The notes beneath the pieces were generated by a model. That model worked only from the letters and a program-made list of their open reading frames with translations. It was not told where the DNA came from and did not search any database. DNA of 47,754 nt from a virus. Lineage: Duplodnaviria > Heunggongvirae > Uroviricota > Caudoviricetes. This document shows, piece by piece, positions 36,942 to 46,881 of this stretch; position 1 is the first letter of the stretch; each line of letters opens with the position of its first letter. A program made the position numbers and the translations under genes. The DNA lies in IMG/VR virus record IMGVR_UViG_2778261224_000004; one strand, given 5' to 3'.

Positions 36942-37598
36942 ATGAAAAGCAACGACGAGAACATCAAGAAAGAAATAGGTCTGCGCATTCAGACTCTACG
37001 GAAACAATCCGGCATGACTGCCGGAGATCTCCAGCAAGTCACTGGAATAGGCTTAAGCACCTTGCAGAACTATGAGGCCGGATTAAGACAACCATCTATA
37101 CCTGCCATCAAGAAAATCGCGCACGCCCTGAAAGCATCAGCGCCTTATATCGCGTGCTTAACAGATAACCCGTTCCCACCCCAGAATACTAACGCTCCTG
37201 TTATTCCTGGGCTTGTAGCTATAAAAAATGACATAGCATCGCACGCCGGAGAAAAGCCAGTGCTGGCGATAGAACAGGAGATTCTACGAAGCAAGAACAT
37301 CAACCCATCGTCTCTGTCAGTTCTCCAGAGCAACGATGAGTTAATGTCACCAACAATATCCCCAGGCTCCCAAGTCCTGATTAATACAGACGATACAGAG
37401 ATTCATGAGGGGATCTATGCCCTTGAAGACAGAAATGGCCTGGTTGTTTTGAGGCACTGTAGAGTCATACCGGGTGACAATGCTGTTATGCTGTCAACCG
37501 AAAGGGATGCTGAAATGAACACTAAGCATCTGAATAACGAGGAATTTAAGCGTTATAAAGTTCTTGGCCGCGTAGTTAGTGTTGTCAACTGGTTATGA
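36942..37598 (+). CDS. CI-like repressor (HTH_XRE N-terminus, LexA/S24-like C-terminal domain)
   Basis: 218-aa ORF; ..QTLRKQSGMTAGDLQQVTGIGLSTLQNYEAG.. HTH and S24-like C-terminal domain. Confidence 0.8.
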   Translation: MKSNDENIKKEIGLRIQTLRKQSGMTAGDLQQVTGIGLSTLQNYEAGLRQPSIPAIKKIAHALKASAPYIACLTDNPFPPQNTNAPVIPGLVAIKNDIASHAGEKPVLAIEQEILRSKNINPSSLSVLQSNDELMSPTISPGSQVLINTDDTEIHEGIYALEDRNGLVVLRHCRVIPGDNAVMLSTERDAEMNTKHLNNEEFKRYKVLGRVVSVVNWL

Positions 37599-37640
37599 TA
37601 CACAGCACGGCGAAAGCCGTGCATTTCTACGCTCAAAAAA

Positions 37641-37655
37641 ACCACATTTTGTGGT
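37641..37655. promoter_or_regulatory. Operator-like palindrome ACCACATTTTGTGGT between repressor gene and downstream ORF
   Basis: Perfect outer half-sites; adjacent TTGACA at 37657-37662. Confidence 0.45.
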
Positions 37656-37690
37656 TTTGACAACATGTAAAAGTATAAAAGAGGCTACGC

Positions 37691-38065
37691 ATGGAATTAC
37701 ATACAGCCAATAAAAACGAAACTCTGATCACTGCTGGAATCGAAATCCAAGCGTTGAACATAGCGATTGAGTGTATGTTATGCCAAATCATTGATAATGA
37801 GAAAGATATCGACTGGATAGAATCTATCCTTCATCTGGCATCAGAACAAAAAGTCTGCCTCAAAACGGCCTTACAATACGATGTGCCAGCGGTATCGAAG
37901 CTGTGCCAGCCATTGATGGCATATAACAGGGCTATTATTTCTGTATGCCTCATGATTCTTGATGAAACCCCCCCTCTTAGCGACCGCTCAGAAGCTGCTC
38001 TAACCCTCTCACGTAAACAGCGACAGCTAGCAAATCAACTGATATCAACGATAGCTGACCTCTGA
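37691..38065 (+). CDS. Hypothetical protein encoded directly downstream of the repressor
   Basis: 124-aa ORF followed by a hairpin terminator. Confidence 0.45.
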   Translation: MELHTANKNETLITAGIEIQALNIAIECMLCQIIDNEKDIDWIESILHLASEQKVCLKTALQYDVPAVSKLCQPLMAYNRAIISVCLMILDETPPLSDRSEAALTLSRKQRQLANQLISTIADL

Positions 38066-38069
38066 CTGC

Positions 38070-38089
38070 AAGCGGGCTAACGCCCGCTT
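38070..38089 (+). terminator. Hairpin (candidate terminator) after the 124-aa ORF
   Basis: AAGCGGGC-TAAC-GCCCGCTT perfect 8-bp stem; downstream tract AT-rich rather than a clean T run. Confidence 0.45.
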
Positions 38090-38200
38090 ATATGATTATA
38101 GATTTATATAATTATATAAAACGCTTTTCATCAGCCAAAAAGTTGGTTATGCTTACCTCGTTCTATAAATATAGATTTATAGAATTATATAACCAAACAC
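38085..38200 (+). promoter_or_regulatory. Two copies of the AT-rich ATTATAGATTTATAtAA motif upstream of parA (promoter/centromere candidate)
   Basis: Motif at about 38090-38115 and 38165-38190; a third copy lies upstream of parG at 38861-38900. Confidence 0.45.
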
Positions 38201-44634: not shown

Positions 44635-44925
44635 CTATTTTTGTGACTTTACTCCTGGCATATGGACTTCCCAGCGACGAATCCCCATAGCTGCGCAAAA
44701 ATCAGCCACATAATTCAATCCCGCCCATTCGCGGATACCACCACGGGCTTTTTCAATGAAAACGGCAATCCCTTTTTTATTGAGAGCAAAAAGCCGCCAG
44801 CTTTTTGTCACTTCGTCCTGGGTAGCCACAACACAAGTGAAAGCTCCCATGCGATACAGGTCCAAGAACTCTTTGCGTGTTTTGCGTACAAGTTCCATAA
44901 CAAACCTCATATTTGCATGTTTCAA
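44635..44925 (-). CDS. Hypothetical protein
   Basis: 96-aa ORF between HigBA and the origin region. Confidence 0.4.
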   Translation of the reverse strand: MKHANMRFVMELVRKTRKEFLDLYRMGAFTCVVATQDEVTKSWRLFALNKKGIAVFIEKARGGIREWAGLNYVADFCAAMGIRRWEVHMPGVKSQK

Positions 44926-45221
44926 ACATCTGTTTTGTTATCAATGAAGATTAACCCTAACCCAGCGAAGTAACACAGCAGCGCCCAGGCTGCATACGGA
45001 ATGCTGGATCTGGATGTGGACTCCTTTAACATCTGCCAGTTGCGAACATTGCGACTATCTTTTAAGCCTAGTTTTTTGGCCAACTGCGAGCCACTCATTC
45101 CGGTGAGGCCAATGACTGCCCGAACTTCTCCACATGTAGGAGATTCCCATTCATCCGCTTTTTTTAAACAAGCCGGATTCAACATTTTTAAAACAGTATC
45201 TTTATCCATAACCATCTCCAT
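44922..45221 (-). CDS. Hypothetical HTH-containing protein with hydrophobic C-terminus
   Basis: 99-aa ORF; ..LTGMSGSQLAKKLGLKDSRNVRNWQ.. HTH-like and C-terminal hydrophobic segment. Confidence 0.4.
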   Translation of the reverse strand: MEMVMDKDTVLKMLNPACLKKADEWESPTCGEVRAVIGLTGMSGSQLAKKLGLKDSRNVRNWQMLKESTSRSSIPYAAWALLCYFAGLGLIFIDNKTDV

Positions 45222-45439
45222 TTATTATATCTACGATGGTAGGAAATCTTTTCCTATGTGGCAATAGAAATTTACTACATTGCGTATAAGACAAGTTTTC
45301 TATGTCTAATAGGAAATGATGTTTCTTACGTTTTATCGCGTTCTGATGGCTACTGTGTGCGTATTTCTCGACGTTTATTGATAAGGCTCGCCCCTTCCTC
45401 CTGCAAAGCCCGGCCGTAGGCCTTATTTCGGCCTTATAT

Positions 45440-45850
45440 AAATTGATTTTGTATAGTTCGAAACGCGCCGTTTCGAAAAGGATGATCAGGCTGCTCCATG
45501 CCTCCGGCAAGTGCCGGAGGAGGTATATTTGAGCGTAGCGACTCGAACCGGCGCGAGCTTTAGCTCGCTGCAAGGGCGAACATATTCACAGGCAAAGCCT
45601 GCGTAAGTTAAATAAAGAAAGTCTTAATAAAAGAAAGTGATTTTGCATTTATTTGTTTAGTGCATCTATTATAAAAAACCATTTGCATATACATATCAAA
45701 ACTGTGGATAACTTTATTAGCCGATGCCTGTAAAGGCGATATTTTTGCTGTGTTCCGGTTTAGAGAAAATTAATTTAGATTGTTTTTTGAACAGATATTT
45801 TATTGCGACGTAGATAATCCTCCGGTAAAACCGGATTCATCATTCAGGTG
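45440..45850. other. Candidate plasmid replication origin (oriR-like) downstream of repA
   Basis: DnaA box TTATCCACA (minus strand, 45703-45711) in an AT-rich stretch, preceded by perfect palindromes TTCGAAACG-CGC-CGTTTCGAA (45457-45477) and CCTCCGGCA-AG-TGCCGGAGG (45506-45527). Confidence 0.5.
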
Positions 45851-45852
45851 GG

Positions 45853-46830
45853 TTAATGTTGGAGTGATTTCCAGGTCTTTCTTAACCTGTTATAACGCTG
45901 CTCAACGAGGGATCGTAAATATGCAAGGTCAGCTCCAGGATACATGCCATCAGCAAATTCCTGGCTAACCTCTCTAGTGATTTGATGACGAAGTTCGGCC
46001 TCTCCCTTTTCCCGAACAAGACGCGCAGCTCTCTCCGCTGCTTTCTGTTTTGCCTTTATCTCTCTGGCCGTCTTCCTCTGATGCCATACATTCTCCATCT
46101 GCTCCTGAATAACAATACGCTTATAATCAGCCTCCGTTATCGCTTTTTTAAGCCGTTCGCTATTCTTCGCATTGAAGTAATTAAGTTTCTGGCTAACCGC
46201 ACGTCTCCATGCTTGTTCAGTAATACCAACGGTTTCCAGCAGTTGATCACGAATCTCTATTTTCGCTGGCCAATACTGTTTATTCACCCGATCCCAGCGA
46301 CGTTCATAATCAATAAAACCTAACGCTTTCAGTTGCGACAATGCCCTTGTACAGCGCGTTATAGACTTGTTCCCAGCTTCGGATACGGTAGACAGGCCGC
46401 AAAAATCAGCCAACGCCTCAGCACTGGCCAGAACCCGCTTAGAAATGATGTTTACATGGTGCAAAATCGCAGCGATCACAGCATTAATCGCCCGACGACG
46501 ATGCTCGTTTATCCGGCGCTTCCGCTCTGACGGTTGATTAACGTAGAACGCAACCTCACACGTAAGATCACGCCCATTAATGCGCTGTAAAGCATCAGAT
46601 AACACCAGCGGCAGCTTGTGCGTATGGTGCTTTGGAGGCTGGAACTCCGGCGACAAATTACAAACGTAAGCTGAACGTAGAGACGGCATTGGTCTATCCA
46701 TATGTTCGCTCTTGCGTCCACGGAAAACCAACGTATAATGGGAGTTGTCGAGGCGCCCATGGTTAGTTGTTGGTTTTCCGTGGATGTCGCAAGAAGCCCG
46801 CAGATTTATCTGCGGGCTTTTTGTTTCCAT
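45853..46830 (-). CDS. repA: Plasmid replication initiator RepA, IncFII (RepFIIA)-like; true start probably internal (Met 46701 or 46692)
   Basis: 325-aa ORF; ..FCGLSTVSEAGNKSITRCTRALSQLKALGFIDYERRWD.. resembles the RepA1 core as recalled; the N-terminal 43 codons overlap the antisense-RNA/leader structures. Confidence 0.6.
   Translation of the reverse strand: METKSPQINLRASCDIHGKPTTNHGRLDNSHYTLVFRGRKSEHMDRPMPSLRSAYVCNLSPEFQPPKHHTHKLPLVLSDALQRINGRDLTCEVAFYVNQPSERKRRINEHRRRAINAVIAAILHHVNIISKRVLASAEALADFCGLSTVSEAGNKSITRCTRALSQLKALGFIDYERRWDRVNKQYWPAKIEIRDQLLETVGITEQAWRRAVSQKLNYFNAKNSERLKKAITEADYKRIVIQEQMENVWHQRKTAREIKAKQKAAERAARLVREKGEAELRHQITREVSQEFADGMYPGADLAYLRSLVEQRYNRLRKTWKSLQH
46746..46826 (+). 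ncRNA. Candidate CopA-like antisense RNA opposite the repA leader
   Basis: Plus-strand TTGCGT-N16-TATAAT (46712-46739) and, about 80 nt downstream, terminator GCCCGCAGA-TTTA-TCTGCGGGC plus TTTTGTTT (46796-46826); perfect 15-bp inverted repeat 46718-46732 / 46768-46782 in the leader. Confidence 0.5.
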
Positions 46831-46866
46831 ATCTGGTCACTTTCCAACCAGACACCCACAATCATA

Positions 46867-46881
46867 ACCACGTTACGTGGT
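46867..46881. promoter_or_regulatory. Operator-like palindrome ACCACGTTACGTGGT in the repA promoter region
   Basis: Same ACCAC-N5-GTGGT architecture as the immunity-region operators. Confidence 0.45.

What the first reader, a model, noticed from the sequence alone, without database searches (positions are those of the whole stretch)
36942..46881. Phage-plasmid: a complete temperate phage carrying IncFII-like repA, ParA/ParG partition and HigBA, with no integrase
All modules of a temperate phage are present (CI/Cro-like switch, Q-like gene, lysis, lambda-like head, contractile tail), but no integrase, excisionase, attP-like tRNA fragment or protelomerase was found. Instead there is a RepA-like initiator with antisense RNA and a DnaA-box origin, a type Ib-like parA/parG pair and a toxin-antitoxin module. 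The lambda-like head, P2/Mu-like tail and IncFII-like replicon together form a mosaic I cannot place in a described phage-plasmid group from memory.
Basis: partly seen in the sequence, partly recalled or inferred. Interest (0 to 1): 0.75.

Follow-up and report, generated by a model that had tools for sequence, protein, structure and literature searches.

The report
E. coli 47-kb myovirus phage-plasmid

Summary
Confirmed. The window is a closed circle (77-bp terminal overlap, unit 47,677 bp). It is 99.6-99.9% identical to E. coli plasmid NZ_CP064105.1 and about 97% identical to the isolated Yersinia phages vB_YpM_39/41/44. In 5,426 complete E. coli genomes, about 71 carry it. The tail region occurs only on 32-94 kb plasmid records and never on a chromosome.

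No integrase, recombinase or protelomerase is present. The region 36942-47015 holds:
- a distant IncFII-family RepA, with a DnaA-box/AT-rich origin downstream and a conserved antisense-RNA unit in its leader (not CopA by Rfam);
- a small ParA plus an 82-aa adaptor that is not a recognisable ParG;
- a HigB2-type toxin-antitoxin pair.

- a conserved dif/psi-like XerCD site;
- a timP/timR (ryfA) type I toxin module;
- a P1-like C4 RNA/antirepressor unit;
- a dispersed repressor operator that also sits between the repA promoter and its leader;
- an 8-bp iteron shared by the par promoter and several other promoters.

It matches none of the ten typed phage-plasmid groups, and I found no paper describing it. 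Verdict: new member of a known kind, moderate interest.

The parts
147..36767 (-). Phage body, all on the minus strand: tail fibre and assembly, P2/Mu-type baseplate, tape measure, tube, sheath, lambda gpE-type capsid, ClpP-like protease, portal, large terminase, ParB/Srx-like and methyltransferase genes, holins, GH108 endolysin, Rz-like spanins, and the early-left operon (Ref nuclease, DUF1064, DUF3560).
   Evidence: RefSeq annotation of the 99.6-99.9% identical plasmid; ORF list; Pfam and PHROGs; capsid tblastn.
36768..36941 (.). Divergent switch region with three 17-bp palindromic operators AACCAC-N5-GTGGT (36786-36802, 36807-36823, 36889-36905).
   Evidence: Five perfect sites in the genome against 0.04 expected. 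Conserved in relatives.
36942..37598 (+). CI-like repressor: N-terminal HTH plus a degenerate S24-like C-terminal domain, with the catalytic Ser and Lys apparently replaced by Leu and Arg (inferred from motif).
   Evidence: Pfam HTH_3 4.5e-11; S24 18.4 bits, below the 23.3 cutoff. 65% identical to the Salmonella relative, with an invariant HTH.
37640..37656 (.). Perfect operator palindrome between cI and the 124-aa gene / par operon.
   Evidence: Half-sites are kept and the spacer varies in relatives.
37691..38065 (+). 124-aa protein of unknown function (phrog_7632).
38088..38200 (+). Two arrays of 8-bp iterons (TTATAGAT/TTATATAA) flanking the par promoter; candidate operator and centromere.
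   Evidence: 17 matches against 0.1 expected; conserved in relatives.
38216..38869 (+). Small ParA ATPase (217 aa, deviant Walker A GKGGVTKST, no N-terminal HTH), type Ib size class.
   Evidence: Pfam CbiA/ParA/MipZ; NF041546 78.5 bits, below the 180 cutoff; weak match to ParF of TP228, 4dzz, E 3e-4.
38869..38908 (+). Third iteron array, between parA and the adaptor gene.
38913..39161 (+). 82-aa candidate centromere-binding adaptor: basic, disordered N-terminal 40 residues, then a short conserved segment and two helices (compatible with ribbon-helix-helix); not a ParG family member.
   Evidence: No Pfam, NCBIfam or PDB hit; only homologs of 79% identity or more; AF2 helices at 47-59 and 62-79, pLDDT 65; fold search empty.
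39559..39855 (-). ryfA/timP-type mRNA with a 40-aa hydrophobic ORF (ATG at 39709, +147 from the 5' end).
   Evidence: Rfam RF00126, 142 bits against a cutoff of 80; ORF; ORF position matches TimP in PMC7667032.
40033..40135 (+). TimR-like divergent small RNA: promoter TGGACT/16/TAAAAT at 39999-40026, its first 18 nt complementary to 39775-39792 of the timP-like 5'UTR, terminator near 40107-40135.
   Evidence: (D5)
40152..40168 (.). Operator-like palindrome (1 mismatch) upstream of the isrK/C4/ant unit.
40227..40412 (+). isrK-like RNA (40227-40299) and C4 antisense RNA (40324-40412). The C4 loop at 40363-40376 is complementary (13/14) to 40462-40475, which spans the start codon of the next ORF.
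   Evidence: Rfam RF01394 65.8 bits and RF01695 77.8 bits; inverted repeats I11 and I17.
40466..41835 (+). 63-aa ORF (in the position of icd) overlapping by ATGA the 393-aa antirepressor (ORF6N + Rha domains).
42442..43268 (-). Operon of a 126-aa unknown protein and a 90-aa HTH protein, driven by one of three copies of a 114-bp iteron/promoter/5'UTR cassette (43155-43268).
43426..43710 (+). 94-aa protein with a weak HTH-like C-terminus.
43744..44452 (-). higBA-type cassette: promoter TTGAAA/17/TATAGT (44452-44424) overlapped by two ATAACC-N4-GGTTAT-like palindromes, toxin 44043-44390, antitoxin 43744-44043.
   Evidence: 95.7% identical to the cassette on Y. pestis pPCP1.
44466..44493 (-). dif/psi-like XerCD core GGTGCCGATAA-CGTCCA-TTATGTTAAAT. 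The 200-bp stretch containing it (window 44442-44643: the core plus about 150 bp on its XerC-arm side) is 88% similar to unannotated DNA of other plasmids.
   Evidence: 2 mismatches to the dif arms against a best of 5 in shuffles; arms identical and spacer changed in all relatives.
44635..45209 (-). Two small genes (87 and 95 aa) downstream of the origin; the 95-aa protein has an HTH-like segment.
45600..45711 (-). Candidate origin: perfect DnaA box TTATCCACA (45703-45711) followed by about 100 bp of AT-rich DNA, starting 142 bp after the repA stop.
45853..46701 (-). RepA, IncFII family. The ORF runs to 46830, but that upstream ATG is absent in relatives, which are called at 277-278 aa.
46712..46822 (+). 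Antisense unit in the repA leader: -35 TTGCGT, -10 TATAAT (46734-46739), a transcript of about 77 nt ending in a 16-bp hairpin plus U-run. The sense leader forms a long hairpin over the same DNA.
   Evidence: Fold z = -10; promoter and terminator invariant at 77% leader identity; two compensatory pairs.
46866..46882 (.). Perfect repressor-type operator AACCACGTAACGTGGTT between the repA promoter and the leader.
46988..47015 (-). Conserved sigma-70-like repA promoter TTGACT/16/TATGAT.

Best explanation
This is the complete genome of a temperate myovirus whose prophage is a low-copy circular plasmid (a phage-plasmid).

Shown by sequence and databases:
- The element is circular and extrachromosomal.
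- It has a full virion and lysis gene set.
- It carries no recombinase.
- It has an IncFII-family RepA, a small ParA, a HigB2-type toxin-antitoxin pair, and matches to the ryfA, C4 and isrK RNA families.

Inferred mechanism:
- Replication. RepA is transcribed from a conserved promoter at 47015-46988 and initiates theta replication at the DnaA-box/AT-rich origin just downstream of its gene. A roughly 77-nt antisense RNA made inside the leader pairs with a long leader hairpin next to the repA ribosome site and sets copy number, in the manner of CopA/CopT.
- Segregation. ParA and the 82-aa adaptor segregate copies. The adaptor is proposed to bind the 8-bp iterons at the par promoter.
- Multimer resolution. 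Host XerCD resolves multimers at the dif/psi-like site. This would explain why the element has no resolvase of its own.
- Post-segregational killing. HigBA and the timP/timR module are proposed to kill or arrest cells that lose the plasmid.
- Lysogeny. The CI-like repressor binds AACCAC-N5-GTGGT operators at the switch, after cI, near the ant unit and in the repA 5'UTR. Because its S24-like domain appears catalytically dead, induction probably goes through the antirepressor, which a C4 antisense RNA keeps silent as in P1 immI.
- Lytic replication. Loss of repressor may also raise repA transcription and drive runaway replication for lytic growth.
For: Circularity and identity:
- 77-bp terminal overlap; 99.6-99.9% identity to a circular 47,492-bp plasmid.

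Lifestyle:
- 58 of 5,426 complete E. coli genomes hold at least 80% of the maintenance region, all on 47-50 kb records in the rows listed.
- The head region gives 82 plasmid places and 1 chromosome place. The tail region gives 83 plasmid places and 0 chromosome places.
- Relatives occur only on contigs of 50 kb or less.

Virions:
- Phage isolates OR545053-55, about 97% identical, carry the same module.

Modules:
- Protein families.
- Antisense unit.
- Origin.
- Xer site.
- RNA families.
- C4 and TimR complementarities.
- Operators: 5 perfect against 0.04 expected, with half-sites kept and spacers changed in relatives whose CI is 65% identical but whose HTH is invariant.
- Iterons: 17 against 0.1 expected.

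No recombinase.
Against: - Nothing was tested in this particular host. Induction, virion production, copy number and stability are all inferred.
- This copy has a different tail-fibre end from the Yersinia isolates and lacks the Hin-type invertase that relatives carry.
- The adaptor has no detectable ParG or ribbon-helix-helix homology.
- The same iterons sit at several other promoters, so they could be sites for another regulator rather than a centromere.
- The antisense RNA is not a CopA family member, and only five sequences support its structure.
- The repA operator lies about 100 nt downstream of the promoter. That is an unusual position for repression, and no clear second promoter overlaps it.
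- One chromosome place for the head region was counted but could not be located.
Confidence: 0.85

Rival explanations
1. It is a phage-derived plasmid that has lost the ability to make infectious particles in this host: a cryptic plasmid prophage kept only by its replication, partition and toxin modules.
For: No experiment exists for this copy. The tail-fibre end differs from the isolated phages, and an acetyltransferase replaces the invertase. Some database copies are truncated (32-39 kb) or carry IS insertions.
Against: All structural, packaging and lysis genes are intact ORFs, 98-100% identical to those of many other carriers and of the isolated phages.
Confidence: 0.1
2. It is an integrative element that uses the host Xer system (as CTX-phi does). 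The dif-like site would act as attP, and the circle would be an excised or replicative form.
For: The core site is only 2 mismatches from the dif arms and has a 6-bp spacer. The element has no recombinase of its own.
Against: None of 5,426 complete genomes has the tail region on a chromosome. The element has a full replicon, a partition system and toxin modules, which an integrated element would not need. The site's flank resembles plasmid resolution regions.
Confidence: 0.03
3. The circle is an assembly artefact or a cointegrate of a prophage and an unrelated small plasmid.
For: The 77-bp overlap is a typical assembler signature. One ATCC 25922 record is a 94-kb double copy.
Against: The same gene order and junctions recur in dozens of independent complete assemblies and in phage isolates.
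Confidence: 0.02

Closest known systems
Yersinia phages vB_YpM_39/41/44 (OR545053-55) and unnamed 46-50 kb E. coli plasmids such as NZ_CP064105.1 and the 48,488-bp plasmid of ATCC 25922
   Same: The same element: 97-99.9% DNA identity over most of the genome, with the same repA/par/hig/immunity module.
   Different: The Yersinia isolates and most relatives have a Hin-type invertase and other tail-fibre genes where this copy has an acetyltransferase. The ant/ryfA region varies between copies.
Phage P1 (plasmid prophage)
   Same: A circular plasmid prophage of a myovirus. Repressor operators are dispersed around the genome. A C4 antisense RNA sits upstream of a small ORF coupled to an antirepressor. 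It carries a toxin-antitoxin module.
   Different: About half the size. No DNA similarity beyond ant fragments. An IncFII-type antisense-controlled replicon instead of the iteron-controlled RepA. A small ParA plus small adaptor instead of type Ia ParA/ParB. No Cre/lox, and a host Xer site instead. A lambda-type head.
IncFII replicons (R1/R100: CopB-CopA-tap-repA-oriR)
   Same: RepA belongs to Pfam PF02387. An antisense RNA is made inside the leader. The origin, with a DnaA box, lies just downstream of repA.
   Different: RepA is at most about 39% identical to classical RepA over short segments (24-39% of its length; 27% in the longest such match) and fails the TIGR03474 cutoff. There is no CopA match and no CopB gene. 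A phage-repressor operator sits in the 5'UTR.
Type Ib partition systems (TP228 ParF/ParG, pB171 par2) and omega of pSM19035
   Same: A ParA of about 215 aa without an HTH. A small adaptor with a flexible basic N-terminus and a helical C-terminus. Short iterated sites at the operon promoter, with the same 8-bp period as parH. Iteron arrays at several promoters recall the omega regulon.
   Different: No sequence or fold match to ParG or omega. DNA binding was not tested.
N15 linear plasmid prophage
   Same: From my own knowledge of N15, its prophage repressor also controls transcription of the replication gene, linking copy number to lysogeny. An antirepressor is used for induction.
   Different: N15 is linear with a protelomerase, is a siphovirus, and has an unrelated RepA.

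Membership tests
Phage-plasmid | Complete phage virion, packaging and lysis gene set | tested here: met
Phage-plasmid | Plasmid replication and partition genes on the same molecule | tested here: met
Phage-plasmid | Extrachromosomal in lysogens, not integrated | tested here: met
   Circular contig. The tail region occurs only on plasmid records: 83 places against 0 on chromosomes in 5,426 genomes. Relatives occur on contigs of 50 kb or less.
Phage-plasmid | Infectious virions produced | not testable with these tools
   Only indirect evidence: phage isolate records about 97% identical.
Typed phage-plasmid groups (P1, D6, N15, SSU5/pHCM2, pSLy3, pKpn, pMT1, pCAV, AB, cp32) | Shared gene repertoire and size range of the type | tested here: not met
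   No DNA match to any of them, only ant fragments. Size is 47.7 kb, against 72-134 kb for P1, D6 and the SSU5 types (PMC12977533). No protelomerase.
IncFII RepA family (Pfam PF02387) | Full-length match above the curated cutoff | tested here: met
   150 bits against 22.9; NF040977 231 bits against 70.
Classical IncFII replicon (R1/R100) | RepA equivalog TIGR03474 | tested here: not met
   77 bits against a cutoff of 446.9.
Classical IncFII replicon (R1/R100) | CopA antisense RNA | tested here: not met
   No Rfam CopA hit even at E up to 10. An unrelated antisense unit is present.
Classical IncFII replicon (R1/R100) | Origin with a DnaA box just downstream of repA | tested here: met
Classical IncFII replicon (R1/R100) | CopB repressor and tap leader peptide | tested here: inconclusive
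   No gene lies between the promoter and repA. A leader ATG at 46760 is conserved, but its reading frame is not clearly a short peptide.
Type Ib partition (ParA + ParG-like) | Small Walker-type ParA without an N-terminal DNA-binding domain | tested here: met
Type Ib partition (ParA + ParG-like) | Adaptor belongs to ParG (PF09274) or has a ribbon-helix-helix fold | tested here: not met
   No Pfam, NCBIfam or PDB hit. The model shows a disordered tail and two helices only, and the fold search was empty. Fold status is inconclusive; family membership is not met.
Type Ib partition (ParA + ParG-like) | Iterated centromere at the operon | tested here: inconclusive
   Iteron arrays flank the par promoter, but the same iterons occur at other promoters.
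HigBA-type toxin-antitoxin | Toxin gene first, RelE/ParE-superfamily toxin, HTH antitoxin | tested here: met
P1-type immI unit | C4 RNA upstream of a small ORF whose start region it can pair with, coupled to an antirepressor | tested here: met
   Rfam 77.8 bits against 45; 13/14 complementarity over the start codon; ATGA overlap. Ant has ORF6N/Rha domains.
timP/timR (ryfA) type I toxin module | ryfA RNA with a small hydrophobic ORF and a divergent complementary small RNA | tested here: met
   142 bits against 80; ORF at +147 (PMC7667032); 18-nt complementarity.
XerCD resolution site (dif/psi/cer) | 11-bp XerC and XerD arms separated by 6-8 bp | tested here: met
   2 mismatches, with a perfect XerD arm; conserved arms. 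Recombination is not testable here.

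The most novel reading that the evidence does not exclude
The element has only one replicon, and the prophage repressor gates it directly. With the repressor bound at the operator in the repA 5'UTR, the IncFII-type antisense circuit holds the copy number low. When the antirepressor removes the repressor, read-through into repA overrides the antisense RNA and gives runaway replication, which serves as lytic replication. This would be a natural version of the engineered lambda-PR/R1 runaway vectors.

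In parallel, the 82-aa adaptor would act like omega of pSM19035: a centromere binder that also co-regulates several iteron-bearing promoters around the genome.
Probability: 0.25. Interest if true: 0.6.

Novelty: new member of a known kind. Interest (0 to 1): 0.38.

Why it matters
- Phage-plasmids move genes both as viruses and as plasmids, and surveillance tools currently type only ten groups.
- This lineage occurs in about 1.3% of complete E. coli genomes, including the quality-control strain ATCC 25922. It also occurs in Salmonella, Citrobacter, E. fergusonii and E. albertii, and it forms phages that plate on Y. pestis. Even so, it is annotated as 'unnamed plasmid' and falls outside the typed schemes.
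- Its compact maintenance region combines a host Xer site, two toxin systems, an antisense-controlled IncFII-family replicon and a repressor operator. That makes it a tractable model for how a phage couples plasmid copy control to the lysis-lysogeny decision.

Tried and rejected
- pSLy3 as the group name: rejected. It belongs to the roughly 100-kb SSU5 supergroup.
- The 'pseudolysogenic' Y. pestis phage HQ103 paper: it describes an unrelated 32-kb peduovirus.
- Accession searches in paper texts and supplements: nothing found.
- Gilcrease & Casjens 2018 (PMC5800970), the likeliest place for a prior description, could not be read.
- The PHASTER fragments vB_EcoM-613R2 and 473R2 are pieces of this element, but they were not recognised as plasmid prophage.
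- Rfam CopA: no hit.
- ParG by Pfam, NCBIfam, PDB sequence search, AF2 and Foldseek: no support.
- LexA box near ant or cI: none. The only CTGT-N8-ACAG lies inside a tail gene, at chance level.
- PDB searches with RepA, the DUF3560 protein and the CI C-terminal domain: uninformative.
- A first operator search with an N6 spacer failed because the spacer is N5.
- A second repA promoter overlapping the operator: no convincing -35 found.
- The single chromosome place for the head region could not be located in the listed rows.

Full report
**What the window is**

The first and last 77 bases are identical, so the window is a closed circle of 47,677 bp. It aligns end to end at 97.7-99.8% with the circular 47,492-bp E. 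coli plasmid NZ_CP064105.1. About 78% of it aligns at 84-99% with Yersinia phage vB_YpM_39. That phage, with vB_YpM_41 and vB_YpM_44, is deposited as a complete circular phage genome with host Y. pestis EV76. GC skew is negative throughout, and almost all phage genes lie on the minus strand.

**Check of the observation**

- RepA: the ORF 45853-46830 (-) matches Pfam IncFII_repA over its full length (1.2e-43) and NCBIfam NF040977 'RepA_IncFII_LM' (231 bits, cutoff 70).
- ParA, 38216-38869: a 217-aa deviant-Walker ATPase. Its closest partition protein with a solved structure is ParF of TP228, a weak match (E 3e-4).
- Toxin-antitoxin pair: the toxin at 44043-44390 is a Gp49/RelE-ParE protein, and it precedes an HTH antitoxin at 43744-44043. 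This is the HigBA gene order.
- Repressor, 36942-37598: an HTH_3 protein with a sub-threshold S24-like C-terminus.
- Origin: the only perfect DnaA box in the genome lies at 45703-45711. It begins 142 bp after the repA stop and is followed by about 100 bp of AT-rich DNA.

**No integrase**

Any integrase, resolvase or protelomerase would need an ORF of about 180 aa or more. Every such ORF is a structural, lysis, methylase or ParB/Srx-like protein, Ead/Ea22, DUF3560, CI, ParA, Ant or RepA, or it has no recombinase signature. Relatives do carry a 195-aa serine recombinase next to the tail-fibre genes. By position this is a Hin/Cin-type fibre invertase. In this copy an acetyltransferase gene, wrapping around the window ends, sits in its place. 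The single tRNA is a complete tRNA-Met.

**Lifestyle**

- Of 5,426 complete E. coli genomes, 58 hold at least 80% of the maintenance region. In the rows listed, all of these are on 47-50 kb records. Chromosomal hits are 60-800 bp (mostly about 150 bp) pieces of antirepressor genes and the sequence just upstream.
- The head region is found in 72 genomes, at 82 plasmid places and 1 chromosome place. I could not locate that chromosome place in the listed rows.
- The tail region is found in 71 genomes, at 83 places, all on plasmids. The chromosomal piece is therefore not a whole prophage.
- Carriers include ATCC 25922 (48,488 bp).
- Relatives in Salmonella and Citrobacter occur only on contigs of 50 kb or less.

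**The replicon**

RepA is a distant member of the family.

- It fails the classical IncFII equivalog TIGR03474 (77 bits against a cutoff of 446.9).
- Outside its own lineage, the best plasmid RepA is 37% identical. Classical IncFII RepAs align at about 27-39% over part of the protein.
- The first ATG of the ORF (46830) is not conserved. Relatives are called at 277-278 aa, so the real start is probably M44 (46701) or M48.

Upstream lies a promoter, TTGACT/16/TATGAT, at 47015-46988. Its hexamers are conserved in relatives whose leader is only 77% identical.

Inside the leader, on the opposite strand, there is a -35 TTGCGT, a perfect -10 TATAAT (46734-46739), and a 16-bp hairpin followed by TTTTTGTTT ending near 46822. 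This stretch folds far better than shuffled sequence (z = -10). The promoter and terminator are invariant in relatives. The long leader stem keeps its pairing through two compensatory changes, G-C to A-U and A-U to U-A. That support is modest, because only five sequences were available.

The 5' arm of the long stem overlaps the antisense promoter. The stem must therefore form in the sense leader, right next to the repA ribosome site, and the roughly 77-nt antisense RNA would pair with its other arm and loop. This works like CopA/CopT, but Rfam finds no CopA even at E up to 10.

1. **A Xer site.** GGTGCCGATAA-CGTCCA-TTATGTTAAAT at 44493-44466 (-) is two mismatches from the E. coli dif arms, and its XerD arm is perfect. 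Shuffled genomes never come closer than five mismatches. All relatives keep both arms and change one spacer base. The 200-bp stretch containing the site is 88% similar to unannotated DNA in other plasmids. This is the expected answer to the missing resolvase.
2. **A timP/timR module.** A ryfA RNA lies at 39559-39855 (-), scoring 142 bits against a cutoff of 80. It has a 40-aa hydrophobic ORF at +147, the position of TimP in Salmonella (PMC7667032). A divergent small RNA unit has its first 18 nt complementary to the 5'UTR.
3. **A P1-like immI unit.** The order is isrK-like RNA, C4 RNA (77.8 bits against 45), a 63-aa ORF and a 393-aa ORF6N/Rha antirepressor. The C4 loop is complementary (13/14) to the 63-aa ORF's start codon region, and the two ORFs overlap by ATGA.
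4. **The operator.**
   - *Where it occurs.* AACCAC-N5-GTGGT occurs three times in the switch region and once after cI. It occurs once, perfect, at 46866-46882 between the repA promoter and the leader. One-mismatch copies lie upstream of the C4/ant unit and at 39487.
   - *Statistics.* There are five perfect copies against 0.04 expected.
   - *Conservation.* In relatives the half-sites are kept while the spacers change. Their CI is 65% identical overall, with an invariant HTH.
5. **The iteron.**
   - *At the par operon.* The 8-bp iteron TTATAGAT/TTATATAA flanks the par promoter and fills the parA-adaptor gap.
   - *Elsewhere in the genome.* It also heads three copies of a 114-bp promoter/5'UTR cassette, which drive a DUF3560 gene, an 89-aa gene and a 126-aa/HTH operon. 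It occurs at two further promoters as well.
   - *Statistics.* Counting the par-locus sites too, there are 17 matches against 0.1 expected.

**The 'ParG' claim**

The 82-aa protein has no Pfam, NCBIfam or PDB match, and its only homologs are at least 79% identical. The AF2 model has low confidence overall (pLDDT 65). It shows a disordered, basic 40-residue tail and two helices. That is compatible with a ribbon-helix-helix monomer, but Foldseek found nothing. The protein may work like ParG or omega. It cannot be filed as ParG.

**How induction probably works**

In the CI-like protein, the S24 motif G-D-S-M-x-P-T reads D-E-L-M-S-P-T, and the usual K-R reads L-R-H. Both changes are also present in the 65%-identical relative. 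This reading rests on my knowledge of the motif and is an inference. If it is right, RecA-driven self-cleavage is unlikely, and induction should go through the antirepressor. No LexA box is present nearby. The ant/ryfA block is variable: the Salmonella relatives have another gene there.

**Comparison and novelty**

- The capsid is of the lambda gpE type. Outside this lineage its nearest phage relatives are Vibrio phages such as X29, at 46% identity. The tail is of the P2/Mu type.
- No DNA similarity to P1, N15 or the SSU5 types was found, and the size does not fit any of the ten typed groups (PMC12977533).
- Pfeifer et al. 2021 describe heterogeneous, uncurated communities of about 40 kb that include Escherichia elements. 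This lineage may be listed there, but I could not check their tables.
- PHROGs v4 already holds full-length families for its proteins.

The sequence is therefore known to databases, and the kind of element is known. The lineage is not described in any paper I could search. The HigBA cassette is 95.7% identical to the one on Y. pestis pPCP1.

**Verdict**

Interest is moderate. It is not a new kind of element. It is a common lineage that has gone largely unnoticed, with a compact and testable link between phage repression and plasmid copy control.

Noticed in passing
27366-27479, 34243-34355, 43155-43268 (all read on the minus strand): Three copies (95-97% identical) of a 114-bp cassette. Each has AT-rich iterons, -35 TTTACA / -10 TATGGT, a conserved 5'UTR of about 50 nt, GGAGA and the ATG of one of three unrelated genes (89 aa; DUF3560, 373 aa; 126 aa). 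The par promoter looks like a diverged copy.
   Followed up: partly
28591-28614 and 33116-33139: Further copies of the same iteron, upstream of a 143-aa gene and of a MarR-like 100-aa gene (phrog_1687). This suggests a regulon of six or more promoters.
   Followed up: partly
47297-47677 joined to 1-183 (+): A serine/hexapeptide acetyltransferase gene spans the contig ends, convergent with the tail-fibre assembly gene. Relatives carry a Hin-type invertase and alternative fibre genes at this position. It may be a lysogenic-conversion cargo gene.
   Followed up: no
43744-44479: The toxin-antitoxin cassette is 95.7% identical to one on the 9.6-kb pPCP1 plasmid of Yersinia pestis (52 Yersinia records) and 96% identical to small E. 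coli plasmids. The module is shared between ColE1-type plasmids and this phage.
   Followed up: partly
21440-25320 (-): Three ParB/Srx N-terminal-domain proteins lie next to the packaging genes, one of them fused to a methyltransferase domain. An MT-A70 methylase lies at 27482-28069. None of these is the partition adaptor.
   Followed up: no
28377-28452 (-): A complete phage-borne tRNA-Met (CAT anticodon) between the lysis genes and the methylase.
   Followed up: no
46955-46974 (-): Two GATC sites in a block (GATCC-N6-GATCCTTTTA), invariant across relatives, lie in the repA 5'UTR. Dam methylation or SeqA may have a role here.
   Followed up: no
33180-34301 (-): The C-terminal half of the DUF3560 protein matches a PHROG annotated as primase (3.6e-37). 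No other replication gene was recognised in the early operon.
   Followed up: partly
E. coli genomes records NZ_CP032086.1 (94,204 bp), NZ_JBUBMA010000006.1 and NZ_JBUBMH010000003.1 (about 57 kb): Some assemblies hold two places of the element in one record. These may be plasmid dimers or partial duplications, or they may be assembly errors. This bears on the need for a multimer resolution site.
   Followed up: no
E. coli genomes, head region query 11718-20883: One of the 83 matching places is on a chromosome. The tail region has none, so it is a fragment. The record was not among the rows shown.
   Followed up: partly
45440-45600 (-): GC-rich hairpins (for example CCTCCGGCACTTGCCGGAGG) lie just beyond the AT-rich origin. 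They may be a priming signal like the G-site of R1; this is speculative.
   Followed up: no
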